Source of the DNA: a virus
Lineage: Duplodnaviria; Caudoviricetes
DNA length: 56,631 bases
IMG/VR virus record: IMGVR_UViG_3300045421_000607
Span: 1-56,631 of that record
Strand: one strand, 5' to 3'
Position numbers and translations under genes: made by a program. Below the pieces are notes generated by a model. It was not told the origin of the DNA. It saw only the letters and a list, made by a program, of their open reading frames with translations, and ran no database searches. Below are positions 2,999-41,699 of the stretch, piece by piece (the stretch's first letter is position 1; the number at the start of each line of letters is the position of its first letter).

Positions 2999-3027
2999 AT
3001 TATATATTAAATATAATTACTTGTCAA
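2999..3027 (-). promoter_or_regulatory. sigma70-type promoter TTGACA-17-TATAAT, ATG 6 nt downstream of the -10
   Basis: Perfect consensus on the minus strand upstream of ATG 2992. Confidence 0.85.
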
Positions 3028-6686: not shown

Positions 6687-6715
6687 ATATTAAAACGAAA
6701 TAAACATTTTGTCAA
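6687..6715 (-). promoter_or_regulatory. sigma70-type promoter TTGACA-17-TAATAT, ATG 6 nt downstream
   Basis: Read directly upstream of ATG 6680. Confidence 0.8.
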
Positions 6716-10894: not shown

Positions 10895-10922
10895 ATTGTA
10901 TTGATAATATTTATCTTGTCAA
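10895..10922 (-). promoter_or_regulatory. sigma70-type promoter TTGACA-16-TACAAT, ATG 6 nt downstream
   Basis: Read directly upstream of ATG 10888. Confidence 0.75.
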
Positions 10923-20213: not shown

Positions 20214-21218
20214 CTATCCTCTTCCCAGGTAATATTTTATAAATTTTGTTGTATGATTTATTGATTTTCCATTAGTATGTTTAAACCAATTAATGCTTTT
20301 CGCTCCGTTCAAGAACTTATAACCTATATTAGCTTGAGCGAAAGCTAGCGACCAAATTCTCTCCCATGCGCAAGCTCCAGTTTTATCATTTGGTAACGGG
20401 CAAATATTAATAATATTTGTGCCCAAAACTTTTTCTAGATCTTTTGAAGCAGCAAGAAATGAATTGCAATAAACTATATGAAATGGTTTTGCATAAGATT
20501 TTATAATATCCTTATCTAATCCCGAACTAACATTGGAGCCAATAAATATTGGGTTTTTAGTGCCACGCTTAAAAACTTCTGGCCTTATAACACAATTATT
20601 TTTTTCATCTAGCGTCCATTCTTGGGTTTCTGAATTAAAATCTGCTCTGTCGCACCATCCAGCTACGCATTCTTGAATATGATAATAAAAATTGTTTTCA
20701 TTAAAATTGTTGACCTCTTTTATTTTTTCTGGTTCGAGCAGGATGCTGTCTTGTAAAAATAAAAAAGAATCAAAACAATTTTTATATTTTTTAAAAGCAT
20801 ATATTATAGCCCCGGTTTCATAGTTTTTATTATCGATATCTTCAATAACAATCGAATTATCTATATCTTTAATAATCCTTTGATAGTCTTTGTTTGGAGA
20901 AGACGAATCAATTATAATAATTTGATTATTAGGATAATATTTCTTTATCTTTTCTACAGAAGATATAACGTCTGGAAAATCTTTGACAAAGAATTCTTCT
21001 CCGTCTTTTCTGTAAGTAAATTCAAAAAGTTCTCTATCTTTAAATTTAGTAAAAATTACAAAAGCTGTTTTTTCTTTATTTTTAAATACCTTTGGATTTT
21101 CTTCAATAGGTTTTATGTCAAAAACAAATTTTGCTGTCGTTTCGCCAGATGGCTTACTGCTAGAAAAAATAATATTAGAGTATTTTCTAGTTTTTTTTGA
21201 AGATTTTGGAGGCCACAT
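20214..21218 (-). CDS. GT-A fold glycosyltransferase-like protein
   Basis: IIIIDSSS, NYETGA, FLQDS, AWERIW. Confidence 0.55.
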   Translation of the reverse strand: MWPPKSSKKTRKYSNIIFSSSKPSGETTAKFVFDIKPIEENPKVFKNKEKTAFVIFTKFKDRELFEFTYRKDGEEFFVKDFPDVISSVEKIKKYYPNNQIIIIDSSSPNKDYQRIIKDIDNSIVIEDIDNKNYETGAIIYAFKKYKNCFDSFLFLQDSILLEPEKIKEVNNFNENNFYYHIQECVAGWCDRADFNSETQEWTLDEKNNCVIRPEVFKRGTKNPIFIGSNVSSGLDKDIIKSYAKPFHIVYCNSFLAASKDLEKVLGTNIINICPLPNDKTGACAWERIWSLAFAQANIGYKFLNGAKSINWFKHTNGKSINHTTKFIKYYLGRG

Positions 21219-21233
21219 AAGAACTATATTTTC

Positions 21234-21947
21234 TTAAATGAGCTCTACGCTACTAAATTTTAATCTTGATTCTTTTTTTGTTGTGAAAAAAAACGTTTGG
21301 TATAATCTACCCTCTTCATCTATATTAGAGAATCCATCCGCACCGCTATGTGGTTTCTTGCCTCTGCATAATATAAGTCTATTGAAAACTGCGCCAAGAG
21401 AATCTATAAGCCTCCAATTATTGTCAGGAGTCATCCAGTCATAATTTTTTGATGAATCGAGATTCTCCCACAAGAACAATCCAGAATCATTTGGAGCCTG
21501 AGGATTCAAATATATTAGCCCAACCCATCCGTCTTCCCCTACGCAGTTCCAAACGTCTGTCACATGATTGTGCACCCCCTGACCAATTCTTTGCCCTGTC
21601 TTAGGTTTTAAATGAAAAGAGCAATTCCATTTAGAATTTTTATATAATTTTCCTTCCCATTTTGGATTATCTTGGTTTGGCGTTATATCTTCTTGACTTC
21701 CGTGCGCAGGATAATCTAGATTCCATGCGTCTAAATCAATTTCTTCTCCAGTTATTTTATTTAAATTATATATAAGTGAGGCCGAAGATTTGAAAGGGCA
21801 TTCGTTAGCTCTCTTTGTGGTAGTCGCTTTCCAAGTATTGTTTCCATATGGAAGATAGTAGTTATTTTTTAATTCATTTAATGCATAATTTCTTACTTTA
21901 TATGGATCTTTATAAAAATTTTCAACAATTATTATATCTTTTTTCAT
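21234..21947 (-). CDS. 2OG-Fe(II) oxygenase-like protein (DUF6445-like)
   Basis: IIVENFYKDP, HxxD, GLIYL, FNRLIL...H, RLYQTFFF. Confidence 0.75.
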   Translation of the reverse strand: MKKDIIIVENFYKDPYKVRNYALNELKNNYYLPYGNNTWKATTTKRANECPFKSSASLIYNLNKITGEEIDLDAWNLDYPAHGSQEDITPNQDNPKWEGKLYKNSKWNCSFHLKPKTGQRIGQGVHNHVTDVWNCVGEDGWVGLIYLNPQAPNDSGLFLWENLDSSKNYDWMTPDNNWRLIDSLGAVFNRLILCRGKKPHSGADGFSNIDEEGRLYQTFFFTTKKESRLKFSSVELI

Positions 21948-21966
21948 AAATCAATTAATACGGGAT

Positions 21967-22155
21967 TTATTGTTTTTTATCTAGAGTTTTAAAGAAAAAA
22001 GTTTGAAAAGGCCTAGCGTCTTCTAATAGGTTAAAAAATCCATTGGCTCCTTGACGGGGAATATGGGATTTTTGTAAAATCAATCTATTAAATAGGGCAC
22101 CAAAGTTATCAACTAAAATCCATCTCTTATCTATAATAATTACATCGGACTGCAT
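21967..22155 (-). pseudogene. Truncated paralog of the C-terminus of the adjacent oxygenase
   Basis: WILVDNFGALFNRLIL...GANGF...RPFQTFFF aligns with WRLIDSLGAVFNRLIL...GADGF...RLYQTFFF. Confidence 0.75.
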
Positions 22156-22303
22156 ATATTATATTATACCTTTCAACTTTTAAAAAACCTAACTAATTTA
22201 TCGACTTTTTTTATTTAAAATTCTCTAGATTTTGGTCTATAAATCTTCTATATTTCCGAACAAAAATATTGAATTTTATTCACAAAATAAATTAAAATCT
22301 AAA

Positions 22304-23113
22304 TTACATCATGCGTCTATCTTCTTTTAAGTGAGGTGCATTCATTAAAATAGATTTATGTCTTTCTATAAAAACTTTGCTGTTTTTAAAATTTGCTTGG
22401 AACATCCAGGTCTTCGTCTTGCCATTCTCTCTAGTGCCACCCCATTCTGGTTGAGATACATAATCAATTGAATAAAAACCAGACTTATAACCAAGACTTT
22501 TAGCTCTATAGCATAAATCGTGTTCGTCCATATCTAGTGGAGCATATATCTCATCAAAGTAATTTAATTTTTTGAAAATTTCGTGTTTTAATAATAGAGG
22601 CCCTCTATTCACAGAGTCTCTTATTGCAAAGATATCTCTTTCTGTGCAGTTTTTGTCCGCATGATTTATGTGAATTAAGATGTCTGGCCAACGATCCAAT
22701 TCAAAATCTAATAAATGTATGTCTTTACTATTCTCGTTTATTTTCCAGCTGTGAGCCGTTCTGGCCGTAACAGCGAATATATCATCAAATTTTTTTATTG
22801 GTTGAACTAGCCTAAGATTCCATCCTTCCTCTTTTATTACCATATCGTCTTGTATAATAATAATGTAATCTTCGGAGCTGTTTTTTGCGGCCAGATTATT
22901 TGATCGTGTTTCAAATATATTATTTGCGTATAATATTTTATATTTTATATTAGTATTTTTTAGAAAATTTTTAACTAAAAATTCACTTTGATCGGTGCAT
23001 CCATCTAAGGCTACAATTAGTTCGTATTTGCCTTTTGTGTTTTGTATTATTCCATTCAATACAGATTCGATTAAAAAATCTTTATTGTGTATCGTTAAAT
23101 TTAAGCTAAACAT
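22304..23113 (-). CDS. GT2 glycosyltransferase
   Basis: LDGCTDQS, IQDDM, YFDE...DEHDLCYR. Confidence 0.85.
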   Translation of the reverse strand: MFSLNLTIHNKDFLIESVLNGIIQNTKGKYELIVALDGCTDQSEFLVKNFLKNTNIKYKILYANNIFETRSNNLAAKNSSEDYIIIIQDDMVIKEEGWNLRLVQPIKKFDDIFAVTARTAHSWKINENSKDIHLLDFELDRWPDILIHINHADKNCTERDIFAIRDSVNRGPLLLKHEIFKKLNYFDEIYAPLDMDEHDLCYRAKSLGYKSGFYSIDYVSQPEWGGTRENGKTKTWMFQANFKNSKVFIERHKSILMNAPHLKEDRRMM

Positions 23114-23799
23114 CTAAGAAGATTTTCTTTGTTGCAATCTATGTGAAATCTTTGATACAAAGGAACCGCGCCCATAGAATATTTTATTTTTAAAATAGTT
23201 AAAATGCTCTGGTCTCTTCTATGTTCTATAAATAAATCATCTTTAAGATTGAGGTCGTATCTGTCGTCAAGTATTAGTTTTTTATTTTCGCATAGAGTAA
23301 GCCACTCAGTCAAAAACTTTATATTTTTTTCTGTTCTTCTAAACCCGCATATACCGGCTTCCAATTGAATCGAGGTTTTATATTCTTCTCCAAGATTAAG
23401 TTCTTTAAAAAGTTCTGGTTTAGTATAGCGTCTATTTTCCTTATCTCCTTCATAAAGTATATAATCAAAATATTTAAAATGCTCAGAAAGATATTCTCCT
23501 AAACTTTCGTTTGGAATGTCTGCAGAATCTATATAAAAAACAATATCATCTGCCTCTGATTTGTTTAATTGCTCTAATATTATATACGGTTTCCAAATCC
23601 AATAACCCGCCCCAATTCTTTGAGATAAAATTTCTTTATTTTTTTCTTTAAATTCTTCCGATAAGTCTTTAGGTCCATATTCTATTACGTCATATCCCAT
23701 TGATCTCATTAGTGACGATTGAGCTCGTCTTATTTTTTCGTATTTTTCGTTTGCGTAATTAATTATTTTGATATTTTTTTCTGTATTCAGTTTTAGCAT
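23101..23799 (-). CDS. Putative glycosyltransferase (GT-A-like)
   Basis: GYWIWKPYII, YIDSAD, EHRRDQSIL. Confidence 0.6.
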   Translation of the reverse strand: MLKLNTEKNIKIINYANEKYEKIRRAQSSLMRSMGYDVIEYGPKDLSEEFKEKNKEILSQRIGAGYWIWKPYIILEQLNKSEADDIVFYIDSADIPNESLGEYLSEHFKYFDYILYEGDKENRRYTKPELFKELNLGEEYKTSIQLEAGICGFRRTEKNIKFLTEWLTLCENKKLILDDRYDLNLKDDLFIEHRRDQSILTILKIKYSMGAVPLYQRFHIDCNKENLLRCLA

Positions 23800-24556
23800 A
23801 GAACTCCTTTGTTTGATCTGCTGTAAGACTTTTAAAGTATTGATATAACGACCAATTTTGATTAAAGTAAATATTTTTTTCTGAAGAATCTTGGCCTCTA
23901 TAATGCTGAAGATGGTACACTGGTGATGATTTTATAAAATGTATTCTTTTCTTGAGCTTCAGGAGCCTCTCAAATCTTTCCTTATCTTCTGGCCCGTAGG
24001 ATATAAAATATTCATTTTCCATGCCATTATCTATATAGACCTGCCTGTTAAAGAACTGACAGTGTCCAACTTCACTCAAATGATTTTTCATAGAAAAATC
24101 TGTTTCTATTAGATCTTGTAACAAATAATTTTTTTTAAAATTAACTTTGCCTTGGTTATTGATCTCGTACTGCATTTTCCCATATTCAAATGGATATACG
24201 AGGTCTGCTTGGTCATTAATGATTAGATCATGGGCTAGTTTATATGCTTCTAACGGAAGGATTACGTCTATATCATAATTTATCACACATTTCGTATTTG
24301 ATCTAGATAACATTATATTTAGAAATTTAGTTCTATGGAATGGCATAGACGCTTCTTTTATATCATAGAAAATATAATCTATACTTTTATCTAATAAGTT
24401 TTTCGCTTTTGGCTTTATGTCTGCTTCTAAGATGATTATATTTGTTTTAAAATTGCGCAGTATGTAATCTGTCGTAATCAATAAATTGTTAATTCTATCT
24501 TCAGAATCTATCTTCAGTGGTATAATGAACGTACTCTCCAAGAGATCAATTTTCAT
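23759..24556 (-). CDS. GT2/GT7-like galactosyltransferase
   Basis: NYDIDV DxD motif; GMENEYFISYGPEDKE resembles the GT7 WGxED region. Confidence 0.75.
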   Translation of the reverse strand: MKIDLLESTFIIPLKIDSEDRINNLLITTDYILRNFKTNIIILEADIKPKAKNLLDKSIDYIFYDIKEASMPFHRTKFLNIMLSRSNTKCVINYDIDVILPLEAYKLAHDLIINDQADLVYPFEYGKMQYEINNQGKVNFKKNYLLQDLIETDFSMKNHLSEVGHCQFFNRQVYIDNGMENEYFISYGPEDKERFERLLKLKKRIHFIKSSPVYHLQHYRGQDSSEKNIYFNQNWSLYQYFKSLTADQTKEFYAKTEYRKKYQNN

Positions 24557-25374
24557 AGCTTAATCCACCCAGGACAGTATATATCTTTTGTATCTTTATC
24601 TCCATATCCTTCATTAAACCAACGCTTAGGTGCAATAATTTTTTTATTAATATTTGGATTTAACCATGCGCCCCACCAGCTAAAAGAACTATTAGCTATA
24701 ATATTATGATCGCATATCGTCATTGTAGCTAATTCTAAAAATTGATTCTTTGCGTCGCATATATGGAATCTTTCTTTATTAGAAAAATTACAATAAAGAA
24801 AGTCTATATCATCTGAAAATAATAAAAATTTATATTTTTTACTATCAAAGATTTTAAATGCTTCTTCGTAGTAAGCGTCTAGATCCGTATTGTAGAAATG
24901 TTTTAGATTTAAATAATCTGATTTTCTGAAATGCACTGAAACCAATTCGAATCCCTGCATTGTTTTTGTAAATTCTTTGGCAGAAGAAATTAAATGTTCT
25001 GGGAATCTATATTCGTTACGAACCTCTTCTTTTATATGTTCAAAATATTTTTCCGTTTGAAAATATCCATGTAAATTAACATTGTCTGTTATATTGAAAA
25101 GATCCTCGCAAAAATGCATATATGGTTCTGAGATTGTTCGGTAATTCTTATCAGCGGAATCTTGAGCAGATAATTTAAAGAGTCTAGATAGCGTTAATAT
25201 TTTTTGATTTATATAAATATCTTCGGGAATATCTTTAAGATCAAGCCCATAGTCATTAGAAAAATTAATTCCATACTCGAAATCATTCTTTTTCGCAATA
25301 CCCATTAATGCGGCGTATTGGAACATTTGATTTCCTAGTCTACCATTTAAGCCTATATTGTTCATTGTTATCAT
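24553..25374 (-). CDS. GT11 alpha-1,2-fucosyltransferase
   Basis: GRLGNQMFQYA, GYFQ, SVHFRKSDY, FSDD, NSSFSWWGAWL. Confidence 0.9.
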   Translation of the reverse strand: MITMNNIGLNGRLGNQMFQYAALMGIAKKNDFEYGINFSNDYGLDLKDIPEDIYINQKILTLSRLFKLSAQDSADKNYRTISEPYMHFCEDLFNITDNVNLHGYFQTEKYFEHIKEEVRNEYRFPEHLISSAKEFTKTMQGFELVSVHFRKSDYLNLKHFYNTDLDAYYEEAFKIFDSKKYKFLLFSDDIDFLYCNFSNKERFHICDAKNQFLELATMTICDHNIIANSSFSWWGAWLNPNINKKIIAPKRWFNEGYGDKDTKDIYCPGWIKL

Positions 25375-26300
25375 GTTATTCTGATTAAATTATTATATTC
25401 TTGATTGTCAAATTCAAATTTAGAATCTTCTAGCTTTCCGCCATATCTTAATTCTATGTCTTCGATATATTTTTGTGCTACAAAATTTTTATCTATTATT
25501 GCTGATTTTCTTATAAGATCCATTCCCTCTGCCTCAAGTCCATAATTAAATAGTTCTTCTCCAAATTTACATAATATCTCTGGAGGTAGATCTAAATTTT
25601 GACACCATTTTTGGCTTTTATTATTCGACCTTCTTCTCACAACTCTTCCTATAGATGTATAAGTAGCATCATCGTGATATACTCTAACGGATGGGGCATG
25701 AGTAATCTTGAACTTATTGTCCCTGCATTTTAAAGAAAAATCAGTATCTTCATTATGTTTACCCTGTGCGTATTCATTCAAATTTTTCATGGAATATATT
25801 AATATATTCTCGTCCCATTTTACCTTATCAAATACATATTTTTTCATAACCCAAGATTGGCCTCCAGACATATAGAGATATTGATCCTTTTCGTCTGAGT
25901 TTAAGATACGATGTCCATTAATTGGGCTCAAATAGCATGCGTTATCCCAAAATCTTGTACCGTCTGGAGTTTTCACTCTAGGTGTTAAAATATCAAAATT
26001 CCCATTATTACAAATATTTAGAAACCAATCTTCTGAGAAAAGCATGTCGTCATCAGAAATAACTAAGTTGTCGTAACTAGATTTTCCGCAAGCTAGATTC
26101 CTTAATCCTCCAAGAGATCCTTTGAAAGCTTTATCTTTAGATTCTATATATAGAATATTATTTTCTTTAAATTGAGTATTTGTGTGTCCGCATATAATAA
26201 TCTCGTAATTTTTTATATTCTGATTTTTAATTGTCCTTACTTGATTTATTAGTTTATAATCTTTTTTGCCGTTAGTTATAATAACAAAAGATATATTCAT
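25371..26300 (-). CDS. GT2 glycosyltransferase
   Basis: ISFVIIT, YEIII, RNLAC, SDDDM, WDE...EDTDFS. Confidence 0.8.
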   Translation of the reverse strand: MNISFVIITNGKKDYKLINQVRTIKNQNIKNYEIIICGHTNTQFKENNILYIESKDKAFKGSLGGLRNLACGKSSYDNLVISDDDMLFSEDWFLNICNNGNFDILTPRVKTPDGTRFWDNACYLSPINGHRILNSDEKDQYLYMSGGQSWVMKKYVFDKVKWDENILIYSMKNLNEYAQGKHNEDTDFSLKCRDNKFKITHAPSVRVYHDDATYTSIGRVVRRRSNNKSQKWCQNLDLPPEILCKFGEELFNYGLEAEGMDLIRKSAIIDKNFVAQKYIEDIELRYGGKLEDSKFEFDNQEYNNLIRIT

Positions 26301-26340
26301 TTATAATTATATTTATTTTTAATATTTTAGTATATTTTTT

Positions 26341-26369
26341 TTGACAAAAAGATAAATAAGATATACTAT
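26341..26369 (+). promoter_or_regulatory. sigma70-type promoter TTGACA-17-TACTAT driving a structured RNA
   Basis: Consensus elements lie ~10 nt upstream of the first hairpin. Confidence 0.75.
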
Positions 26370-26375
26370 ATAGAT

Positions 26376-26655
26376 ACATACCGCCAAATTAGCGGATAAG
26401 GTTTGTCGTACTCCGTAAAACGATAAGTCTTATTAGTTCACGCGTGGGCAACGCTATCGGAGCTTGCGACCCAGAAAACTACTAGTAGTAGTAGGTGTGT
26501 AGGTGTAAGGGCTAACACGAGAATGACAGTCCTACCGGTGTCTGATAAGTGTTAGGGCCGAAAGGCTTCTGGACTCAATTGGGAAGTTGAACTAATAGAC
26601 TTTTATAACCCTTTTCCAGGGAAAGCTCCGCTTTGAGGAGCTCATTGGGAAGTTA
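26376..26655 (+). ncRNA. Unidentified highly structured non-coding RNA (~280 nt)
   Basis: GC-richer ORF-free island with multiple helices, two candidate pseudoknots and a GAAA tetraloop (see findings). Confidence 0.7.
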
Positions 26656-26782
26656 AATAATTAAACGTAGTCATACACTCCATTATGTAATTTCATTAAA
26701 ATGTTAATAATAAATTAAAATTTTCTTTCTTAGGAAATAAAACTACTGTAATATCAACATATCTGTTGGAGAAAAGTTTTTA

Positions 26783-29044
26783 ATGAATAAAAGTTTTAAT
26801 GTAAAGAAAAGAAATGGATCTACTGAAAAATTCAACATAGAAAAAATACATAAAGTAATAAATTGGGCTATAAAAGATTTATCAAATGTTAGTTTGACTG
26901 ATATAGAAATAAATGCTAAAATAAATTTACACGATGGAGTATCTACAAAGGAAATACATAATTTATTAATCGAATCTTCTGCTAATTTAATCTCGATAGA
27001 AAAACCAAACTATCAATATGTTGCCGGAAGATTACTGAATTATCAATTAAGAAAAGACGTTTGGAAAGGTAAGCACGCTCCAAGGTTATTAGAATTTCTG
27101 CATCAAGGTTTAAAAAATAAAATTTATGATTCTATTATAATCGAAAAATACGACGAAAACGAGTTAAATAAAATAGGAGAATTTATTGATCATGATAGAG
27201 ATTATAATTTTACATACGCTGGAATAAAACAATTATGCGATAAATATTTAATCAAAGATCGTGTTATTAATAAGATATACGAAACTCCACAATTTGCTTA
27301 TATACTTATTTCTGCCTATGCTTTTATAAATTATCCTAAAGAATCAAGATTGGGCTATATTCGAAAATTTTATGATGCTATAAGTAAGCATAAAATTAAT
27401 CTTCCTACCCCCATAATGGCAGGGGTTAGAACTCCTAGCAAAAATTACGCGAGCTGTTGTCTAATTGGTGTTGATGACACTAAAGAAAGCATAACAGCAA
27501 GTGCTACTGCTGTTAGTATAGCAACTGCAAATAGATGTGGGATTGGAATTGACGTGACTAAGATTAGAGCTATTGGGTCTCCAATCAAAAATGGCGAGGT
27601 TATACATACTGGTCTAGTTCCATTTCTAAAAATATATGAGAGTAGCGTAAAGGCTTGGCAGCAAAACGGTCTTCGAGGAGGTAGTGCTACATGCAATATT
27701 CAATGGTGGCATTATGAAATAGAAGATGTCGTTGTGCTAAAAAATAACGCAGGTACAGACGATAATAGAGTTCGTAAGCTTGATTATACAATCGGCATGA
27801 GTAAATTATTTTACGATAGAGTCTTAAAAGATGAGGATGTAACGCTCTTCAATACCGCAGAGGTCCCCGAGCTTTATGAAGCCTGGGGCACAAAAGACTT
27901 CGACAAAATATATAAAGAATGCGAAGCCAAAAGAACTAAACTTAAAAAGAAGATACCTGCGCGTAAATTATTTTCGTTAATCGTAAAAGAAAGAGTTGAA
28001 ACTGGGAGGATTTATATTTTAAATGTCGATCATGCAAATCAACATGGATCATGGTTAGATAAAATTACGATGAGCAATTTATGCACAGAAGTTATACACC
28101 CAACAATTCCTCTGAATGATTTTAATGATAAGAATGGTGAAATTGGCATGTGTATGCTCTCTGCTATAAATATGCTTGAGATAAAAAATTGGCAAGATCT
28201 TGAGAAAACTTGCGATCTTGTCGTAAGATTTCTTGACGAAATAATTGACACTCAAGATTATTTTAATATTGCTGCAGAAAATTTTGCAAAAAAACGTCGC
28301 AGTATTGGCGTAGGTATAACTAATTTAGCCGCTTTTCTTGCTAAAAATGAATTAAAATATAATTCTGATAAAACACTCCCAGTACTAGACGAGTGGATGG
28401 AACATTTTCAATATTATCTTCTGAAGTCTAGCGTAGAATTAGCTAAAGAGAAAGGCAAGTGCGATAAATTTGATAGAACAAAATATTCCAAAGGTATTCT
28501 TTCCATTGATACATACAAAAATAAAATAGATGAAATTTGTAAACGCAAGCTTTCTCTTAATTGGGAAATTTTAAGAAAAGATATTAAAGAATTTGGATTA
28601 AGACATTCTACTTTATCATCTTGCATGCCTTGCGAGAGTAGCTCTGTTATTCAATCTTCTACAAATGGGGTGGAGCCAATTCGTAGTCTTATTACTTATA
28701 AAATGAGCAAAATGGGTAAATTACCAGTGTTAGTTCCAGGAATTGGAAAGTATGATAAAAATTATGAATTAGCTTATGATTTTAAAGATAATATAGGTCT
28801 ATTAAAAATTAATGCTATTGTTCAAAAATATATTGACATGGCTATTTCTACTAATATATATTACAATTATTTACATTATGAAAATCATATTCTCCCCGAT
28901 GCAAAAGTAATGAAAGAAATTATGTATGCATATAGTTTAGGTTTAATAAGTTTATATTATAATAATAGTGATGACGGAGATAAAGAGCAATTAATGAGCC
29001 AGAAAGAAGACCAAGATTGTCACTCTGGCGCGTGTAAACTTTAA
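26783..29044 (+). CDS. nrdA: Class Ia ribonucleotide reductase alpha subunit with ATP cone
   Basis: VKKRNG ATP cone, ETPQ, ASCC, SNLCTE, MPCESSS...TNGVEP, C-terminal CxxxxC. Confidence 0.97.
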   Translation: MNKSFNVKKRNGSTEKFNIEKIHKVINWAIKDLSNVSLTDIEINAKINLHDGVSTKEIHNLLIESSANLISIEKPNYQYVAGRLLNYQLRKDVWKGKHAPRLLEFLHQGLKNKIYDSIIIEKYDENELNKIGEFIDHDRDYNFTYAGIKQLCDKYLIKDRVINKIYETPQFAYILISAYAFINYPKESRLGYIRKFYDAISKHKINLPTPIMAGVRTPSKNYASCCLIGVDDTKESITASATAVSIATANRCGIGIDVTKIRAIGSPIKNGEVIHTGLVPFLKIYESSVKAWQQNGLRGGSATCNIQWWHYEIEDVVVLKNNAGTDDNRVRKLDYTIGMSKLFYDRVLKDEDVTLFNTAEVPELYEAWGTKDFDKIYKECEAKRTKLKKKIPARKLFSLIVKERVETGRIYILNVDHANQHGSWLDKITMSNLCTEVIHPTIPLNDFNDKNGEIGMCMLSAINMLEIKNWQDLEKTCDLVVRFLDEIIDTQDYFNIAAENFAKKRRSIGVGITNLAAFLAKNELKYNSDKTLPVLDEWMEHFQYYLLKSSVELAKEKGKCDKFDRTKYSKGILSIDTYKNKIDEICKRKLSLNWEILRKDIKEFGLRHSTLSSCMPCESSSVIQSSTNGVEPIRSLITYKMSKMGKLPVLVPGIGKYDKNYELAYDFKDNIGLLKINAIVQKYIDMAISTNIYYNYLHYENHILPDAKVMKEIMYAYSLGLISLYYNNSDDGDKEQLMSQKEDQDCHSGACKL

Positions 29045-29097: not shown

Positions 29098-29589
29098 ATG
29101 GATAAATCTCCTTTGTCTACTGAAGAACAGAATTTAATAAAATTAAATATAGAAAAATTTCGCTTAGAAGGTTTTACTTTTGATAATTTTTATATAAAAG
29201 AAGCGGGTAAAAACATTTATGGCAAAGATAAAGGTTTAGGAGTTTTTACTAGAGAAAGAATATCTGAAGGGGTTCTTTTTGGATATTTTCCCATGAGTTT
29301 TATTGGTAACAGGAAACTTTATTTAAATATATATAATAATCCTGTCAAAAGGTACGCGCATTGGGCGGCATGTATGTGTGAGAATTGCCAAAAAAACGGC
29401 GCAAGAGGATTTATAGCTTCAATTGGAGTTTTTATAAATTCTCCAGATTCAAAAGAAGATTGGAATTGTCATTATTATGTTGATCGTACCGCAGAAGTTC
29501 TTATTTTAAAATCTATCAAAAATATAGAGGCTAATCAAGAAATTTTAACTTGGTATGGGCAACATTATTATGATAAGTGGTGCACTTGA
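29098..29589 (+). CDS. SET-domain protein (putative lysine methyltransferase)
   Basis: KGLGVFT...I, FINS, NC, KNIEANQEILTWYG...Y. Confidence 0.75.
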   Translation: MDKSPLSTEEQNLIKLNIEKFRLEGFTFDNFYIKEAGKNIYGKDKGLGVFTRERISEGVLFGYFPMSFIGNRKLYLNIYNNPVKRYAHWAACMCENCQKNGARGFIASIGVFINSPDSKEDWNCHYYVDRTAEVLILKSIKNIEANQEILTWYGQHYYDKWCT

Positions 29590-32870: not shown

Positions 32871-33470
32871 TTAAATGATATCAGCATTATTAATGCTTGT
32901 CAATTTATTTTTTATAAAAATTTTCCCTTTATTATGTAGATTTATAGCGGTTTGAGTGCTAATTTTTAATTTTTTCCCTATTTTATACCAGGCTGTATAT
33001 TTTGCGTTTTGAAAATATCTTAATTTAAATATTTTCAATATTCTTTTGTCTTTTATTCTTTCCAAAAGAGAGAATACAAAGTCAGATTTTTCCTTGATTA
33101 AAGTCTCTGAAAAGTTATATTTTTTTTGGTTTTGTTCCACTATAGTTTTTATAGTTTCATTTTCCATAGTAAATATATTATTTTTTTTATTTAGACAATT
33201 CAAACAGTGATATCTCATTTGATTCCCCAACCACGTAGAAAATTTTACATTTTTATTGGGATCATAATTTAAAATTGACTTATATATTACCATTAATTTA
33301 TCAGAAGCTACATCTTCTGGATCGATGCCAGAATTGACAATGTTTCTATAATATCTTCTTATCATTTGATGACATATTCCGCTGTGTCTAGCTTCAAGCT
33401 CTTTTAAAGCTAAGCTATCATTTTTTGTTCTAACTTGATTTATTAAATCTATATCGGGTATATTGTTCAT
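32871..33470 (-). CDS. Phage RNA polymerase sigma factor (sigma70 family); start probably 33470
   Basis: YDPNKNVKFSTWL (region 2.3-2.4) and C-terminal HTH (LRYF...IGKKLKIS...AINLH). Confidence 0.8.
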   Translation of the reverse strand: MNNIPDIDLINQVRTKNDSLALKELEARHSGICHQMIRRYYRNIVNSGIDPEDVASDKLMVIYKSILNYDPNKNVKFSTWLGNQMRYHCLNCLNKKNNIFTMENETIKTIVEQNQKKYNFSETLIKEKSDFVFSLLERIKDKRILKIFKLRYFQNAKYTAWYKIGKKLKISTQTAINLHNKGKIFIKNKLTSINNADII

Positions 33471-34030: not shown

Positions 34031-34095
34031 ATAATACTTTATAAAAATATAAATGTCAAGCTCTTATTGACGTATGCATAATATCTTGATATACT
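34031..34095. promoter_or_regulatory. Back-to-back sigma70-type promoters: minus TTGACA-17-TATTAT (34059-34031) and plus TTGACG-17-TATACT (34067-34095)
   Basis: Start codons lie 10 nt and 6 nt downstream of the -10 elements. Confidence 0.8.
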
Positions 34096-34101: not shown

Positions 34102-34518
34102 GTGAGTAGAATTTCATTTGAAAAATTTGCTATTGAATTGGCGATCACCGCTTCTGCAAGATCAGAAGATCCATATAAGAAGGTAGGATGCTCTATACTA
34201 AATAGAGACGGCAGACTTTTAAGTATAGGTTATAATGGGCTAGTTTCAAAACATATTGTTGGGCAAAACTTTTGGGAAAATAGAGATGCTAGACGAAATT
34301 ATGTGATTCATGCTGAGACTAATGCTTTATCTTGCGTGTCAAGATATGACAATCCGTATTTATTAGCCTCGACTCTTTTGCCTTGTTCTTGCTGCGCAAT
34401 TAATATTGCATCGTATGGTATAAAAAATGTTTTGTATATAGATGACTATAACAGAGATAAAGAGGCAATTAATATCTTTAGATTTTATAATATAAATTTA
34501 TTAAAATATAAAATATGA
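34102..34518 (+). CDS. dCMP deaminase
   Basis: RSEDP, GYNG, HAE, PCxxC. Confidence 0.9.
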   Translation: MSRISFEKFAIELAITASARSEDPYKKVGCSILNRDGRLLSIGYNGLVSKHIVGQNFWENRDARRNYVIHAETNALSCVSRYDNPYLLASTLLPCSCCAINIASYGIKNVLYIDDYNRDKEAINIFRFYNINLLKYKI

Positions 34519-36242
34519 ATATTTTATCCTGCAATTATAACCATGATGGCTCTGCGGCTATATTAAAAGATGGAAAAATAGCAGGTTATGTTAATACCGA
34601 AAGATTCACAAGGATAAAGAAACATCCTGGCGTTACTAAGCAAGCCTTTAATGAATTATTTAAAATGGCGAATATAGCTCCATCAGAAATAGATATGTAC
34701 ATATTAAATAATTTAAATTATATGTTTTCGCCTGTTTATTATTCAGAGAATAATGGATATTATCAAAACACTTGGGAGAATTTTTTGATACGAGACGATA
34801 CCAGAAAAGATTTACTATCAAAAGATAGGTTTTTTGATATAAAAGATTATGGACTTGATTTAGTCAATAAAGATTTTTTTCCCAAGGTTTCAAATTTTAA
34901 ACTTAACTTTTCTACAAGCGCACATTTTAGAAATTTTCAAAGAAGCTGCTTGGTGAACATACCTCATTATGTTCTTCATGCTGCTGCCGCTTATTATACT
35001 TCTCCTTTTAAATCTGCAACTATTTTTGTTTGGGATCCTACAGGTTTTGAAGCGTTTATAGGTTTTGGGAACAAGATATTTTCTATTTTTAATGATTCGA
35101 TGCTTAATTTTATTAATTTTGGCAGAATCTACGCAGAAATGAGTGAGACAATACTTTTGGAATCTTCGCTGACTTCTGCCGGCAAGTTGATGGGACTAGC
35201 GGCATACGGAAAGAGTTCGCTAGATAAAAAATTCGAAGATTTTAATCTTTTTTCCAATTCGAATTATGCAAATATTTTTGATCTCATAAAGAATGAATCT
35301 AATAAAAATCCTAAATTCTATCAAGAAAAACATATGAAGTTAGACGCAAAAGCTGCGTTTATAACGCAGTCTTTATTAGAAAGTCAATTAGAATATATGT
35401 TTAAATTTCTTTATCAATATGCTTTGGTAAATAATATAGAGCCAAACATATGTATATCTGGTGGGACCGGATTAAATTGTGCAGCTAATGAAAAAGCTTT
35501 TTCTAATTCTAAATTTAAAAATATATTTATGCATCCTGCTTCCGGAGATGATGGTACGGCATTAGGAGGAGCGCTCTACCATTGGCATCATACCCTAGAT
35601 AATCCAAAAGAAAGCTATAGTAATTCAGAACTTATGTATTCAAAAAAGTGTTATTCAAATTTTGAAGTAGAAGAAGCCGTAAAATTGTTCGGCGCAGAAA
35701 TTCAAGTTAGAAAGACAGATAATTATATTAACACTGCTGCTCGATTTATAGCCGATGGGAAAGTAATAGCTTGGTACGAAGGCGGATCTGAAATAGGGCC
35801 AAGAGCTTTAGGACATAGAAGTATACTAGGAGATCCAAGATCGGTCTCTATAAGAGATTTTTTAAATCTTGAAGTAAAGAGTAGAGAATCTTACAGACCC
35901 TTAGCCCCATCAATTTTAAAAGAATATGCAAAAGAATGGTTTGGTATAGAAGAGAGCCCATTTATGCTTAGATCAACAAAAATATTAAAAGATTCTCTAC
36001 CAGGCATTGCTCATGTAGACGGCACATCTAGGCCTCAGGTGCTTGATGCAAAAGACAACCCAAATTATTATAATTTAATTCTATCTTTTTTTAAGATAAC
36101 TGGTATTCCCATGATTTTAGACACCTCATTTAATATTAAAGGAGAACCAATAGTAGAAACCCCTGAAGATGCGTTAAAGAGCTTTCTTAGGAGCAAAATA
36201 GACGCTCTAGTATTCCCTGGGTTGATAATAACAAAGAGATGA
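34515..36242 (+). CDS. O-carbamoyltransferase (NodU/CmcH family)
   Basis: HDGSAA, ERFTRIKK, GKLMGLAAYG, GDDG, GPRALGHRS, KSRESYRP, HVDGTSR, TSFN..GEP. Confidence 0.92.
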   Translation: MNILSCNYNHDGSAAILKDGKIAGYVNTERFTRIKKHPGVTKQAFNELFKMANIAPSEIDMYILNNLNYMFSPVYYSENNGYYQNTWENFLIRDDTRKDLLSKDRFFDIKDYGLDLVNKDFFPKVSNFKLNFSTSAHFRNFQRSCLVNIPHYVLHAAAAYYTSPFKSATIFVWDPTGFEAFIGFGNKIFSIFNDSMLNFINFGRIYAEMSETILLESSLTSAGKLMGLAAYGKSSLDKKFEDFNLFSNSNYANIFDLIKNESNKNPKFYQEKHMKLDAKAAFITQSLLESQLEYMFKFLYQYALVNNIEPNICISGGTGLNCAANEKAFSNSKFKNIFMHPASGDDGTALGGALYHWHHTLDNPKESYSNSELMYSKKCYSNFEVEEAVKLFGAEIQVRKTDNYINTAARFIADGKVIAWYEGGSEIGPRALGHRSILGDPRSVSIRDFLNLEVKSRESYRPLAPSILKEYAKEWFGIEESPFMLRSTKILKDSLPGIAHVDGTSRPQVLDAKDNPNYYNLILSFFKITGIPMILDTSFNIKGEPIVETPEDALKSFLRSKIDALVFPGLIITKR

Positions 36243-36918: not shown

Positions 36919-38037
36919 ATGCATTTTAAAGAAGCGATAGGATACGACGACATAGCTTTATTGCCAAACTTTTCAGAAATTACCTCTAGAAAAGAGGTAG
37001 ACACTACAACAAAGATTTCGAAAAACAATTATATTGATATTCCTATTATTCTATCTCCTATGGACACGGTCTCTTCTGTAAAGGCTTGCATAAAATTAAA
37101 TAGACTTGGTGCCGCAGGAGTTCTGCATAGATTCTTATCAATCGAAGACCAAGTTAGCAAGGCTATTTATATAAGAAACGAAAGTAATTTCTGCATAACA
37201 GCAATAGGTTTAAAAGATGCGCGAAATAGGTTGGAAGCAACCGCACCTTATACAGACATTTTTTTTCTAGATACGGCTAACGGATTGTCTTCTAATGTCG
37301 AGGATTTTTTAATTAATTACAAGCAGTCTAATTTTCAACAAGATATTATTGTGGGTAATACCCTAACGAAAGAAAGCGTATATAGATTAGCTAATTTAAG
37401 GGCCGATGGATTTCGACATCTTATTGGGCCAGGAAGCATGTGCCTTACTCAAATAAAAACTGGGATTGGATGCCCGAGCGTAACAGGCCTTTATTATGGT
37501 TGGAAGGCCGTAAGAAATTTTCAATTATCCAATTTAGATTATTTTCGTAATGAAAATCCCAAAGAAGAAAACCGCCCTAGTATTTTAGCAGATGGTGGTA
37601 TTAGATATCCTCGAGATCTTGTTAAGGCTATAGCTAGTGGAGCAGACGCAGTTATTTGCGGAAGGATATTTGCCGGTCTGAGAGATGTAGTAGATGAAGA
37701 GAATATTATAGAGAAGCATGGTCGTTATTACGCTAAATACAGAGGCATGGCCAGCAAAGAGGTTGTCGAAGATTATGAGTTGTATGATGGCTCTAAAAAG
37801 AATCTATTTGTAGAAGGAGATAAAACTCTTGTGCCTCTTCGAGAAGATAAGACGATAGAAGATATTGTATTTGATTTTGCAAACGGTCTTAGAAGCGCTA
37901 TGAGCTATTTAGGTTTTAAATCTTTAGAGAAAATGAGAGGCGGAATTTGGGAAGATAGAATTAGAATAGTTAAAGTTACTTCTAATAATATGTATGAGAG
38001 CTTTTCTCATGGCAAAATGAGTATTGACAATATATAA
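36919..38037 (+). CDS. GMP reductase / IMP dehydrogenase family protein (no CBS domains); start probably ATG 36919
   Basis: YDDIALLP, SPMDTV, IGPGSMC, ADGGI, YRGMAS, EG. The IMPDH flap RY motif is not evident, which favours GMP reductase. Confidence 0.85.
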   Translation: MHFKEAIGYDDIALLPNFSEITSRKEVDTTTKISKNNYIDIPIILSPMDTVSSVKACIKLNRLGAAGVLHRFLSIEDQVSKAIYIRNESNFCITAIGLKDARNRLEATAPYTDIFFLDTANGLSSNVEDFLINYKQSNFQQDIIVGNTLTKESVYRLANLRADGFRHLIGPGSMCLTQIKTGIGCPSVTGLYYGWKAVRNFQLSNLDYFRNENPKEENRPSILADGGIRYPRDLVKAIASGADAVICGRIFAGLRDVVDEENIIEKHGRYYAKYRGMASKEVVEDYELYDGSKKNLFVEGDKTLVPLREDKTIEDIVFDFANGLRSAMSYLGFKSLEKMRGGIWEDRIRIVKVTSNNMYESFSHGKMSIDNI

Positions 38038-38052
38038 TATATATAGTAGCAT
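38024..38052 (+). promoter_or_regulatory. sigma70-type promoter TTGACA-17-TAGCAT, ATG 6 nt downstream
   Basis: Read directly upstream of ATG 38059. Confidence 0.75.
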
Positions 38053-40512: not shown

Positions 40513-41169
40513 ATGAGTCTAACAAAATTTCGACCTATTCCTTCTTGTCCGAAGACTACTATAATTTTAGACAGGTATAATAAACCTCTTAAATGTTTTC
40601 AAGGATATAGCATTAGACCAGATATTTGGATACAACCTGATAAAAAATGTCCTAGATTTTTGAGTCACAGATGCACACCATGTAAGTGCAAGCGGTATCC
40701 CTTATGTAGTTCTTCAACAAGGAGAAGAGTCAAAAGTTGGTCAACAGATTTTATTCCGCATCCTACTGATAAAGGAAAGGGGTGGGTTTGTTGTACACCT
40801 ATTTTTGAGTGCGTATCAGGTAATGCACCAGACATATCTATGCCACCAGAATGTAAAACTTGTGTTTGTCCTTTTGGTGGAAATCCAGATAATCCAGACC
40901 CCCATAGCATATGGGATCACTTTAGGGTTGCTACTATTCCTTGTCCTTCGGCGCCATTCTGCAAGCCTGGAACAGTTCCTAAAGCGTTAGGCATAGGACC
41001 TGATGGATGCATGAGATACATTTGCGTTACAGCTCCTCCCTCTATTCCTGATTGGTGCAAAACTGCGCGAGTAGATTGTACTAGAATACCTGGTCATGTT
41101 TGCTGTGGTGGATCAGGTGAACCTCCATTACCATGTGGTAGACCGGGTTTTCTCCCTTGCCCTTCTTAA
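40513..41169 (+). CDS. Cys/Pro-rich protein
   Basis: More than 20 Cys in 218 aa; GTGTAA motif 10 nt upstream of the ATG. Confidence 0.6.
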   Translation: MSLTKFRPIPSCPKTTIILDRYNKPLKCFQGYSIRPDIWIQPDKKCPRFLSHRCTPCKCKRYPLCSSSTRRRVKSWSTDFIPHPTDKGKGWVCCTPIFECVSGNAPDISMPPECKTCVCPFGGNPDNPDPHSIWDHFRVATIPCPSAPFCKPGTVPKALGIGPDGCMRYICVTAPPSIPDWCKTARVDCTRIPGHVCCGGSGEPPLPCGRPGFLPCPS

Positions 41170-41637: not shown

Positions 41638-41688
41638 TATACTATATAATATATTTTTTTTAAAAAGTTTCTATTTTTTTTTGTATTT

Positions 41689-41694
41689 GTGTAA
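41689..41694 (+). promoter_or_regulatory. GTGTAA phage promoter motif directly upstream of the group I core
   Basis: The same motif precedes at least 8 genes in the window. Confidence 0.6.
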
Positions 41695-41699
41695 ATCTT

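What the first reader, a model, noticed from the sequence alone, without database searches (positions are those of the whole stretch)
26341..26655. Unidentified ~280-nt RNA with two candidate pseudoknots and its own promoter, upstream of nrdA
Seen helices: CCGC/GCGG (26381-95); a 14-bp hairpin 26396-409/26420-33 whose loop CTCCG (26411-15) can pair with CGGAG (26458-62); long-range TAGTTCA 26434-40/TGAACTA 26588-94, extendable to AAGTCT(T)ATTAGTTCA/TGAACTAATAGACTT in competition with the 14-bp hairpin; GCGT/ACGC; CCAGAA 26471-76/TTCTGG 26567-72; GTAGG 26499-503/CCTAC 26531-35 enclosing CTAACAC (26512-18), which pairs with GTGTTAG (26549-55); GCC-GAAA-GGC; and a final AGCTCC/GGAGCT stem. I cannot match it to RNase P, SRP, 6S, tmRNA or a known riboswitch. 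Inference: a novel ribozyme or large phage ncRNA, or a switchable leader controlling nrdAB.
Basis: partly seen in the sequence, partly recalled or inferred. Interest (0 to 1): 0.85.

Follow-up and report, generated by a model that had tools for sequence, protein, structure and literature searches.

The report
New structured RNA gene in phages
This is a gene for an intricately folded RNA of about 285 bases, from a family not described before, carried by large uncultured freshwater phages; it lies next to the ribonucleotide reductase genes but is not part of them, and its job is unknown.

Summary
The finding is real but the reading needs correction. Window 26341-26660 (+) holds a conserved TTGACA-17-TAnTAT promoter followed by an RNA of about 285 nt. 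Nine nested helices and two pseudoknots are supported by compensatory changes. On 83 distinct homologues, 95.2% of cells pair, against 31-45% when partners are slid, and 49 of 60 pairs change on both sides. Rfam 15 gives no match, even at E<=10, for three divergent members.

CGGAGCUU pairs with AAGCUCCG at 26623-30, not with the P2 loop. The terminal hairpin is not conserved.

It is not an nrdA leader. A covariance model finds the RNA upstream of nrdA in 27 of 81 loci. In 21 it lies on the opposite strand beyond nrdB, converging on another gene. Elsewhere it precedes unrelated genes. In 42 of 52 testable loci it is divergent from a phage tmRNA gene. nrdA keeps its own conserved upstream motifs without the RNA.

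One feature is unexplained. Two single-stranded copies of the same word of 10-13 nt, 65-75 nt apart, change together in all 71 distinct versions.

Function is unknown. My best guess is a stand-alone, trans-acting RNA.

The parts
26341..26369 (+). Promoter of the RNA gene: -35 TTGACA (26341-46), 17-nt spacer, -10 TACTAT (26364-69). The start is predicted near 26376 (inferred).
   Evidence: Found by the scan. This promoter type occurs 7 times in the window against 1.13 expected, and 0 of 100 shuffles reach 7. TTGACA is conserved at the same place in 37 of 39 homologues. The transcription start was not measured.
26381..26395 (+). P1 hairpin CCGC / GCGG, loop CAAATTA
   Evidence: The stem changes as CCGC/GCGG, UCGC/GCGA, GUGC/GCAC, GUAUUA/UAAUAC, GCUU/AAGC and GCCU/AGGC across groups. 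Only 76% of cells pair on A1, because MAFFT misaligns the subgroups.
26405..26424 (+). P2 hairpin (26405-09 / 26420-24) with the conserved loop ACTCCGTAAA
   Evidence: All 5 pairs change on both sides; 98.8% of cells pair (helix 1).
26425..26440 (+). P3 5' strand; pairs with 26588-26602 and closes the multi-helix core
   Evidence: All 12 modelled pairs change on both sides; 97-99% of cells pair (helices 2 and 3).
26446..26472 (+). P4: GGG(26446-48)-CAA-CGC(26452-54) with GCG(26466-68)-A-CCC(26470-72). Its loop carries the 5' strand of pseudoknot A.
   Evidence: 100% of cells pair; 4 of 6 pairs change on both sides (helices 4 and 5).
26458..26465 (+). Pseudoknot A, 5' strand CGGAGCTT; pairs with 26623-26630
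   Evidence: 5 of 8 pairs change on both sides; 83.4% of cells pair. This pseudoknot was not in the covariance model, so the alignment was not fitted to it (helix 6).
26479..26494 (+). P5 hairpin CTACTA / TAGTAG, variable in length between groups
   Evidence: 5 of 6 pairs change on both sides; 98.1% of cells pair (helix 7).
26499..26503 (+). Pseudoknot B, 5' strand GTAGG; pairs with CCTAC 26531-35 in the P7 loop
   Evidence: 92.2% of cells pair. Two pairs covary: A-U to G-C in 9 rows, and C-G (40 rows) against G-C (34 rows). This pseudoknot was not in the model (helix 8).
26512..26555 (+). P6 (CTAACAC 26512-18 / GTGTTAG 26549-55) enclosing P7 (GACA 26525-28 / TGTC 26539-42) and the pseudoknot B 3' strand CCTAC 26531-35
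   Evidence: P6: 100% of cells pair and 5 of 6 pairs change on both sides. P7: 99.4% pair and all 4 pairs change on both sides (helices 9 and 11).
26557..26566 (+). P8 hairpin GCC-GAAA-GGC (GNRA loop), longer in other groups
   Evidence: All 3 pairs change on both sides (helix 12).
26571..26588 (+). Repeat 1: GGACTCAATTGGGAAGTT, a single-stranded joiner between P8 and the P3 3' strand
   Evidence: Shares an exact word of 10-13 nt with repeat 2 in 71 of 71 distinct versions. There are 15 different words; the control mean is 4.7 nt.
26588..26602 (+). P3 3' strand TGAACTAATAGACTT
   Evidence: See the P3 5' strand.
26609..26621 (+). P9 hairpin CCCT / AGGG, variable in length
   Evidence: All 3 modelled pairs change on both sides; 97.5% of cells pair (helix 13).
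26623..26630 (+). Pseudoknot A, 3' strand AAGCTCCG
   Evidence: See the pseudoknot A 5' strand.
26637..26654 (+). Repeat 2: GGAGCTCATTGGGAAGTT. This is the last conserved element and the probable 3' region of the RNA.
   Evidence: No intrinsic terminator follows. The 3' end was not measured.
26674..26754 (+). Not part of the RNA. nrdA-proximal conserved motifs: TACAC (26674-78), TGTTAATAA (26702-10), TTTTCTTT (26721-28) and TGTAATAT (26747-54).
   Evidence: These motifs are unique in the window. The motif chain is found in 16 of 26 loci with the RNA directly upstream and in 44 of 54 without.

Best explanation
Window 26341-26660 is an independent gene for a previously undescribed family of structured non-coding RNA. 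The RNA is about 285 nt here and 290-330 nt in other groups. It is carried by large AT-rich uncultured freshwater phages.

How it is made and folds. It is transcribed from its own host-type (sigma-70-like) promoter. It folds into a compact core: a long-range helix (P3) closes a junction of P4, P5, P6/P7 and P8. Two pseudoknots lock the core. One joins the P4 loop to a strand beyond P3. The other joins the P7 loop to the strand before P6. The fold is shown by comparison; transcription is inferred.

How it most likely works (inferred). It is not a cis-regulator of nrdA. It most likely acts in trans as a folded scaffold that displays two identical single-stranded purine-rich words, repeats 1 and 2. 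Both words would be read by the same co-evolving partner. That partner could be two copies of one protein or RNA, or one partner contacted alternately.

My odds:
- real structured RNA: about 0.95
- independent gene rather than nrdA leader: about 0.8
- two-site binding scaffold as the mode of action: about 0.35
For: Structure. On 98 matches (83 distinct rows), 95.2% of cells pair against 30.7-45.3% with partners slid. 49 of 60 pairs change on both sides. 0 of 500 shuffles reach any of the five measures. The same holds on 39 sequences and on the MAFFT alignment A1, which was not fitted to any structure. The two pseudoknots were not in the model, yet they covary.

Strand. Many G-U/U-G pairs and the conserved promoter point to the + strand.

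Independence. The covariance model R1 gives strong full-length matches in 48 of 81 sources:
- 27 upstream of nrdA on its strand
- 21 on the opposite strand, about 2 kb beyond nrdA

Other contexts:
- In L069 the RNA converges on ORF 6712-7233 and is divergent from a tmRNA gene.
- In L223 a 320-aa ORF follows it.
- In L012 a 371-aa ORF follows it.
- A divergent tmRNA gene lies within 900 nt in 42 of 52 loci with enough sequence.

Repeats. An exact shared word of 10-13 nt is present in 71 of 71 distinct versions. There are 15 different words. The base after GGGAA is the same in both copies in 39 of 39 group-A sequences: G,G 20; A,A 18; T,T 1.

No known family. Rfam gives nothing at gathering score or at E<=10.
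Against: - No transcript data: the start, the end and expression itself are unmeasured.
- No terminator follows the RNA. In the 27 loci where it precedes nrdA, read-through into nrdA is possible, so it could double as a leader there.
- No partner for the repeats was found. Duplexes with the phage's own tmRNA fall at inconsistent sites. The words are not enriched elsewhere in the window or in three related genomes. No neighbouring protein is shared by all groups.
- Single-sequence folding energy is not significant.
- The nested helices were counted on alignments fitted to the model, which favours them. Only one search is free of this.
Confidence: 0.6

Rival explanations
1. Cis-acting leader or riboswitch of the nrd operon. 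The fold senses a metabolite such as a (deoxy)nucleotide. It then sets readthrough into nrdAB where it lies upstream, or antisense transcription into the operon where it lies downstream on the other strand.
For: It lies directly upstream of nrdA on the same strand, with no predicted terminator, in 27 of 81 loci. In 21 more it points back into the nrd operon from downstream, so most copies are within 3 kb of nrd genes. The co-varying repeats could in principle be two strands competing for one partner, as in riboswitch expression platforms.
Against: - The downstream neighbour differs: nrdA, a 371-aa ORF, a 320-aa ORF or a convergent ORF.
- In one 87%-complete genome the RNA is about 9.6 kb from nrdA.
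- nrdA keeps its own conserved upstream motifs without the RNA.
- No strand complementary to the repeats was found in the RNA or the nrdA leader beyond low-complexity pyrimidine runs.
- No terminator or SD-sequestering hairpin is conserved.
- Linkage to tmRNA is at least as regular as linkage to nrd.
Confidence: 0.1
2. A ribozyme. The double-pseudoknot core is a catalytic centre, and the two identical words are two substrate or processing sites. For example, it could cut or join itself at both, releasing or circularising the 65-75-nt unit between them.
For: The size, the two pseudoknots, the GNRA loop and the invariant joiner nucleotides across five divergent groups are typical of catalytic RNAs. 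Two sites that must keep the same sequence fit recognition by one guide or active site. No terminator defines the 3' end, which lies at repeat 2.
Against: There is no match to any ribozyme family in Rfam. The unit between the repeats contains strands of P3 and pseudoknot A, so excising it would dismantle the core. No activity data exist.
Confidence: 0.15
3. A template RNA for a polymerase that jumps between the two identical words. This would be rolling-circle copying of the 65-75-nt unit, as I recall for the DRT2 reverse-transcriptase ncRNA. It would use a host enzyme or an unrecognised phage enzyme.
For: Identical words at both ends of a unit, held close together by P3 and pseudoknot A, are what template jumping needs. 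DRT2 as a concatemer-producing ncRNA system is described in passages of preprint 10.64898/2026.09.22.753630.
Against: No RVT_1 reverse transcriptase is found in the window record or in three related records (two 87% complete, one 63%). The controls rang in 4 of 14 genomes. Only 19 of 67 distinct units are a multiple of 3 long, so there is no conserved endless ORF. The would-be template is base-paired in the core.
Confidence: 0.07
4. A partner of the phage tmRNA, acting in or on trans-translation or ribosome rescue. The two genes would form a divergent non-coding pair.
For: A divergent tmRNA gene lies within 900 nt in 42 of 52 loci with room; 41 of the 43 adjacent cases (L270, with 697 nt of room, included) have an estimated gap of 85-290 nt. 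The window itself carries a tmRNA at 54327-54718.
Against: In the window and the other loci where the RNA sits upstream of nrdA, the two genes are far apart: 28 kb here. 10 of 52 loci lack the adjacency. Predicted duplexes between the repeats and the cognate tmRNAs fall at different places in three phages. Adjacency may be plain synteny.
Confidence: 0.08

Closest known systems
GOLLD and ROOL (large orphan structured RNAs, often phage- or prophage-borne)
   Same: Large, ornate, pseudoknotted stand-alone RNAs found by comparative genomics, carried by phages and of unknown function. GOLLD was also first seen in lake metagenomes (abstract of PMC12286853 seen in a search listing; the rest is recalled).
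   Different: No sequence or structure match to either Rfam model. This RNA is much shorter, about 285-330 nt. It has the co-varying internal direct repeat, which I do not recall for those RNAs.
DRT2 ncRNA (template of an antiviral reverse transcriptase)
   Same: A structured ncRNA of a few hundred nt in which a unit is bounded by repeated sequence and its ends are held together by the scaffold (recalled; the system is outlined in preprint 10.64898/2026.09.22.753630, passages seen).
   Different: No reverse transcriptase gene is found in four records. Unit length is not constrained to multiples of 3: 19 of 67. The RNA is phage-encoded rather than part of a host defence locus.
Bacterial RNase P RNA, P3-P4 region
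   Same: A hairpin is followed by a purine run (GGGAAAG here) whose 3' part forms a long-range pseudoknot helix. This resembles the hairpin-GGAAAG-P4 arrangement of RNase P. The resemblance is recalled, not computed.
   Different: No RNase P model matches at E<=10. The two pseudoknot strands come in the opposite order along the RNA. The large domain lies outside them, not between them. No specificity-domain equivalent was recognised.
Riboswitch or structured 5' leader (e.g. cobalamin or 2'-dG riboswitches before nrd genes; the glutamine riboswitch beside the tmRNA gene of marine phage Melnitz)
   Same: A structured RNA directly before nrdA in many loci. Marine pelagiphage relatives carry a known riboswitch next to their tmRNA gene (PMC9004378, passages seen).
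   Different: No riboswitch model matches. Gene context is not constant. No expression platform was found.

Membership tests
Any Rfam 15 family (4227 models) | Covariance-model match at the family's gathering score | tested here: not met
   The whole window gives only a tmRNA at 54327-54718 and a group I intron at 41673-41919. Four related loci give only a tmRNA. At E<=10, three divergent members give only chance hits with E 0.58-8.8, far below gathering scores.
Riboswitch / cis-regulatory leader of nrdAB | Constant position in the 5' UTR of the regulated gene | tested here: not met
   Of 81 loci, 27 have the RNA upstream of nrdA and 21 have it on the opposite strand downstream. Other downstream genes are seen in L223 and L012, and a convergent ORF in L069.
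Riboswitch / cis-regulatory leader of nrdAB | Expression platform (terminator/antiterminator or SD-sequestering helix) coupled to the aptamer | tested here: not met
   0 terminator-like sites in 26100-26900. No conserved complement to the repeats or to the SD region was found.
Riboswitch / cis-regulatory leader of nrdAB | Ligand-dependent structural change | not testable with these tools
   Needs in-line or SHAPE probing with candidate ligands.
Bacterial RNase P RNA | CM match and canonical order P1-P2-P3-P4(5')...specificity domain...P4(3') | tested here: not met
   No RNase P hit at E<=10. In the supported structure, the strand that follows the hairpin-purine run is the 3' strand of the pseudoknot, so the order is reversed.
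Group I intron | CM match, insertion in a gene, P3-P7 pseudoknot with P4-P6 between the strands | tested here: not met
   Rfam finds a true group I intron elsewhere in the window but nothing here at E<=10. The element has its own promoter and lies between genes. The helix order differs.
tmRNA | tRNA-like domain plus tag reading frame | tested here: not met
   ARAGORN and Rfam find the phage's tmRNA elsewhere. Neither calls one in this region.
Reverse-transcriptase template ncRNA (DRT2-like, retron-like) | Adjacent or co-encoded reverse transcriptase | tested here: not met
   PF00078 gives 0 matches in 4 records (the window's record, two 87% complete, one 63%). Controls rang in 4 of 14 genomes. 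This tool's first look missed a true RNA match once, so absence is likely but not proven.
Reverse-transcriptase template ncRNA (DRT2-like) | Repeat unit that gives an open reading frame when concatenated | tested here: not met
   Unit lengths are 65-75 nt; 19 of 67 are multiples of 3; 15 of 67 have any stop-free frame.
CRISPR mini-array / repeat-mimicking anti-CRISPR RNA | Repeats flanking a variable spacer, with no conserved fold around them | tested here: not met
   The segment between the repeats holds the conserved, covarying P3 3' strand, P9 and the pseudoknot A 3' strand. Exact shared words are only 10-13 nt.

The most novel reading that the evidence does not exclude
The RNA is a new catalytic or polymerase-templating RNA. 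The double-pseudoknot core brings together two identical, co-evolving words that mark the ends of a 65-75-nt unit. That unit is repeatedly cut out and joined, or copied by template jumping, giving circular or concatemeric products. This would be a phage-borne counterpart of rolling-circle ncRNA systems, made early in infection.
Probability: 0.15. Interest if true: 0.9.

Novelty: categorically new. Interest (0 to 1): 0.72.

Why it matters
New large RNA folds with this much comparative support are rare. Past examples (RNase P, group I/II introns, glmS, GOLLD/ROOL/OLE) each opened a line of structural or mechanistic work.

What this family offers:
- 83 distinct sequences in five divergent groups.
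- A fully specified secondary structure with two pseudoknots, ready for probing and cryo-EM.
- A puzzle I have not seen described: two copies of one word inside a single RNA that change in step through 15 versions.
- A regular link to phage-encoded tmRNA genes.

It also corrects an attractive but wrong reading, a riboswitch for ribonucleotide reductase. Its promoter is of the host type, so it is probably made early in infection. The RNA may therefore be part of host take-over or counter-defence in abundant lake phages.

Tried and rejected
Expression and earlier findings
- The look-up of sequencing runs for RNA: unreachable. When answered, no RNA holder was listed. I give this no weight either way.

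Model building and genome searches
R1 covers only P2 to the pseudoknot A 3' strand. P1 and repeat 2 were studied by script instead.
- The genome search with R1 reported no match in record G002. This was a false negative: the RNA is there. Its negatives for phages HTVC008M and Mosig therefore do not count.
- HTVC008M was re-tested whole by cmsearch: no match at E<=1, with the positive control found. Mosig was not re-tested.

Searches of cellular genomes and metagenomes
- One strict pattern scan of genome contigs gave 2 hits, both rejected by the model.
- 6 of 33 metagenome hits are also chance matches.
- The looser pattern gave mostly chance or coding hits.

Search for a partner of the repeats
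- tmRNA duplexes are inconsistent between phages.
- The words are not enriched in the window (24 hits against 29 expected).
- They are not enriched in three related genomes.
- Mutual information within 39 group-A sequences finds only the other repeat and phylogenetic columns.
- By eye, the P1 loop CCAAUU could pair with AAUUGG of repeat 1 in group A. Variants L063 and the window are not compensated, so I dropped it.
- By eye, UUUG between P1 and P2 could pair with the CAA(A) of the repeats. That is only 3-5 A-U-rich pairs, so I make no claim.

RegA/RegB idea
- The repeats look like GGAG/GGAU followed by an A-rich run (recalled from T4 biology).
- The Pfam RegB and RegA searches were silent, but so were their controls, so they are inconclusive.
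- tblastn with 12 HTVC008M proteins, RegA included, hit only PhoH in G002 and the window.
- These phages are therefore not close T4-like relatives, although NrdA is nearest to pelagimyophages at 51.5%.

Neighbouring proteins
- The small ORF between the RNA and the tmRNA (69 aa in L223) is present only in the groups that lie downstream of nrd (19 loci).
- It has no Pfam family, and other neighbours are uninformative.

Literature
- Three full-text searches and passages of PMC10690425, PMC9004378 and preprint 10.64898/2026.09.22.753630 show nothing that describes this RNA.
- PMC10690425 catalogues about 10,000 unnamed candidate RNAs from the same virus collection. Its supplementary tables were not seen, so it may list this motif.
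Full report
**What is there**

The window is a 56.6-kb fragment of an uncultured virus record, estimated 37% complete. It is AT-rich. Positions 26301-26782 hold no ORF of 40 aa or more. They lie between a leftward 309-aa ORF (25371-26300, no Pfam family) and nrdA (26783-29044). After nrdA come a SET-domain ORF and nrdB.

Inside this gap the G+C content rises to 46.5% (26400-26599), against 18-34% around it. Folding the single sequence is not better than shuffles: z -1.50, and 14 of 200 shuffles fold as well. The opposite strand gives z -2.53. Energy alone therefore proves nothing.

**No known family**

Rfam 15 at gathering scores finds only a tmRNA (54327-54718, minus strand) and a group I intron (41673-41919) in the window. 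With permissive filters and E<=10, the 700 bases around the finding give two chance hits, at E 3.7 and 7.6. Two very divergent homologues (L223, L069) also give only chance hits. blastn against 50,697 phage records finds nothing for three groups of the family.

**Relatives**

- NrdA retrieved 204 viral loci, and the best 80 were kept.
- blastn found the RNA region upstream of nrdA in 20 of the 80.
- Pattern scans added further viral contigs and 33 metagenome stretches, 27 of them confirmed.
- Six metagenome hits and both genome-contig hits are chance matches.
- A covariance model was built from 18 close relatives over P2 to the 3' strand of pseudoknot A (R1). It gave strong full-length matches in 48 of 81 sources.
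- A scan for the pair of repeats typical of the divergent groups found 61 more viral stretches.
- R1 then matched 98 of 100 chosen loci, which give 83 distinct aligned rows.

The family falls into five groups, which I label A to E. The window belongs to group A, which has 39 distinct full-length sequences.

**Structure**

On the MAFFT alignment A1, which is not fitted to any structure, my structure pairs 96.1% of cells, against 31.8-46.0% when the 3' partners are slid. 26 of 67 pairs change on both sides. 0 of 500 shuffles reach this.

On 39 and then 83 distinct sequences aligned to R1:

| Measure | 39 sequences | 83 sequences |
|---|---|---|
| Cells paired | 94.7% | 95.2% |
| Cells paired, partners slid | 31.5-44.0% | 30.7-45.3% |
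| Pairs changed on both sides | 48 of 60 | 49 of 60 |

These alignments lean towards the nested helices of the model. The two pseudoknots were not in the model and still hold:
- Pseudoknot A (CGGAGCUU 26458-65 with AAGCUCCG 26623-30) has 5 of 8 pairs with double changes.
- Pseudoknot B (GUAGG 26499-503 with CCUAC 26531-35) has A-U to G-C and C-G to G-C exchanges.

Frequent G-U pairs fix the strand as plus.

The architecture, 5' to 3':
1. P1 hairpin.
2. P2 hairpin.
3. A long-range helix P3 that closes a junction of P4, P5, P6/P7 and P8. The loop of P4 carries the pseudoknot A strand. The P7 loop carries the pseudoknot B strand. P8 has a GNRA loop.
4. Repeat 1.
5. The P3 3' strand.
6. P9 hairpin.
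7. The pseudoknot A 3' strand.
8. Repeat 2.

P1, the inner part of the '14-bp hairpin', P3, GTAGG/CCTAC, CTAACAC/GTGTTAG and GCC-GAAA-GGC are right.

Five others were tested together: the outer part of the 14-bp hairpin, loop CTCCG with CGGAG, GCGT/ACGC, CCAGAA/TTCTGG and the terminal AGCTCC/GGAGCT stem. They show no more pairing than shuffles (79.9% against 80.5%) and fewer double changes (2 against 4.4).

**Promoter**

TTGACA-17-TACTAT at 26341-69 is found by the scan. This promoter type is enriched in the window: 7 against 1.13 expected, and 0 of 100 shuffles reach 7. Several of the sites lie just before gene starts. TTGACA is kept at the same distance in 37 of 39 homologues from all groups. 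No terminator-like site follows the RNA. Start, end and expression are inferred, not measured.

**Not an nrdA leader**

Among the 81 sources:
- The RNA lies upstream of nrdA on the same strand in 27.
- It lies on the opposite strand, about 2 kb beyond nrdA, in 21.
- It is not seen within 3 kb in 33. One of these, L013, has a marginal partial hit at the locus end.

Other contexts:
- In L069 it converges on ORF 6712-7233 and is divergent from a tmRNA gene at 7691-8108.
- In L223 a co-oriented 320-aa ORF follows it. In that 87%-complete genome it is about 9.6 kb from nrdA.
- In L012 a 371-aa ORF separates it from nrdA.

The stretch between the RNA and nrdA carries conserved motifs: TACAC, TGTTAATAA, a pyrimidine block and TGTAATAT. 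These are unique in the window. They also occur before nrdA in phages that have a protein gene there instead of the RNA. A strict regular expression finds the chain in 16 of 26 loci with the RNA directly upstream and in 44 of 54 others. They are therefore nrdA's own control region.

Read-through from the RNA promoter into nrdA remains possible where the two are adjacent.

**Link to tmRNA**

Of the 61 loci from the repeat scan, 52 have at least 700 nt of sequence upstream of the RNA. 42 of these carry a divergent tmRNA gene within 900 nt. With L270 (697 nt of room), 43 loci have the adjacency, 41 of them at an estimated 85-290 nt. Ten of the 52 do not have it.

In the window the tmRNA is 28 kb away. 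A 69-aa ORF lies between the two RNA genes in groups D and E only and has no Pfam family.

Marine relatives of the nearest cultured phages are reported to carry a two-piece tmRNA with a glutamine riboswitch (PMC9004378, passages seen). That is a different arrangement.

**The co-varying repeats**

Repeat 1 (26571-88) is the joiner between P8 and the P3 3' strand. Repeat 2 (26637-54) follows pseudoknot A.

- In all 71 distinct versions, the two regions share an exact word of 10-13 nt. Random windows of the same RNAs share 4.7 nt on average.
- There are 15 different words. Examples are ATTGGGAAGTT, ATTGGGAAAT, ATTGGAAAGTA, ACTGGGAAGT, AAAGAAAAGTT and AGGGAAAAAGTTT.
- Within group A, the base after GGGAA is identical in both copies in 39 of 39 sequences.
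- The copies are 65-75 nt apart. 19 of 67 distinct units are multiples of three long.

I found no complementary partner:
- none in the RNA;
- none in the nrdA leader beyond a low-complexity pyrimidine run;
- none at a consistent site in the phage tmRNA;
- no enrichment elsewhere in the genomes.

Two segments that must stay identical point to one of three things: one partner read twice, two strands competing for one partner, or a polymerase or nuclease that treats both alike. Which of these applies is open.

**What kind of phage**

NrdA is nearest to Pelagibacter myophages HTVC008M and Mosig, at 51.5%. However, 11 of 12 HTVC008M proteins tried find nothing in the 87%-complete relative G002 or in the window. 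The 12 included DNA polymerase, gp32, RNase H, gp55 and RegA. Only PhoH matched. The phages are therefore not close T4-like relatives.

The window encodes a DNA polymerase, a DnaB-like helicase, a UvsX-like recombinase and many sugar-modifying enzymes. HTVC008M has no R1 match at E<=1, while a positive control was found in the same search. No reverse transcriptase domain is found in four records. The host is unknown.

**Verdict**

This is a real, well-supported, previously unclassified structured RNA family. It is an independent gene rather than a regulator of ribonucleotide reductase.

I commit to a trans-acting scaffold that presents two identical recognition words, at about 0.35. The rivals are a ribozyme (0.15), an nrd leader (0.10), tmRNA-linked action (0.08) and a polymerase template (0.07).

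My three literature searches and the passages I read show no description of it. The unseen supplementary catalogue of PMC10690425 may contain it unnamed.

Noticed in passing
window 41673-41919 (+): A full-length group I intron (Rfam RF00028, 74.4 bits, E 4e-17). The flanking ORFs 40513-41169(+), 41176-41637(-) and 42088-43716(+) have no Pfam family, so the interrupted gene was not identified.
   Followed up: partly
window 54327-54718 (-): A phage-encoded one-piece tmRNA with an unusual 24-residue tag (AKTAKYKGHLSTRVSLVEETTSVA). Close variants of this tag, and a second type ending in LIAA, recur in dozens of related contigs.
   Followed up: partly
window 26674-26754 (+) and the same place in L002-L072: A conserved chain of motifs before nrdA: TACAC, TTGTTAnTAA, a TTTTTCTTT block and TGTAATAT. 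It is present with or without the RNA and is probably nrdA's own promoter or operator. It does not fit the sigma-70 spacing, and I could not match it to NrdR boxes from memory.
   Followed up: partly
window 29098-29589 (+): A 163-aa SET-domain (protein methyltransferase-like) ORF is inserted between nrdA and nrdB (Pfam E 8.7e-07).
   Followed up: no
window 2999-3027, 6687-6715, 10895-10922, 32875-32903, 34031-34059 (all -), 38024-38052 (+): Six further TTGACA-N16-18-TAnnAT promoters, several placed just before gene starts. They suggest a set of host-polymerase (early) promoters.
   Followed up: no
window 20214-26300 (-) and 4209-6128 (-): A long run of glycosyltransferase and sugar-modifying genes: GT2, GT11, a nucleotide-sugar epimerase and a carbamoyltransferase at 34515-36242. 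This is unusual in amount for a phage.
   Followed up: no
L223 4832-5041 (-) and 19 loci of groups D and E: A conserved 69-aa ORF with no known family sits between the RNA gene and the tmRNA gene, on the tmRNA strand.
   Followed up: partly
record G002 (locus L223 5121-5391): the genome search with the RNA model reported no match in a record that does contain the RNA. Its first-look filter can miss true matches, so its negatives for RNA models should be re-checked by cmsearch.
   Followed up: yes
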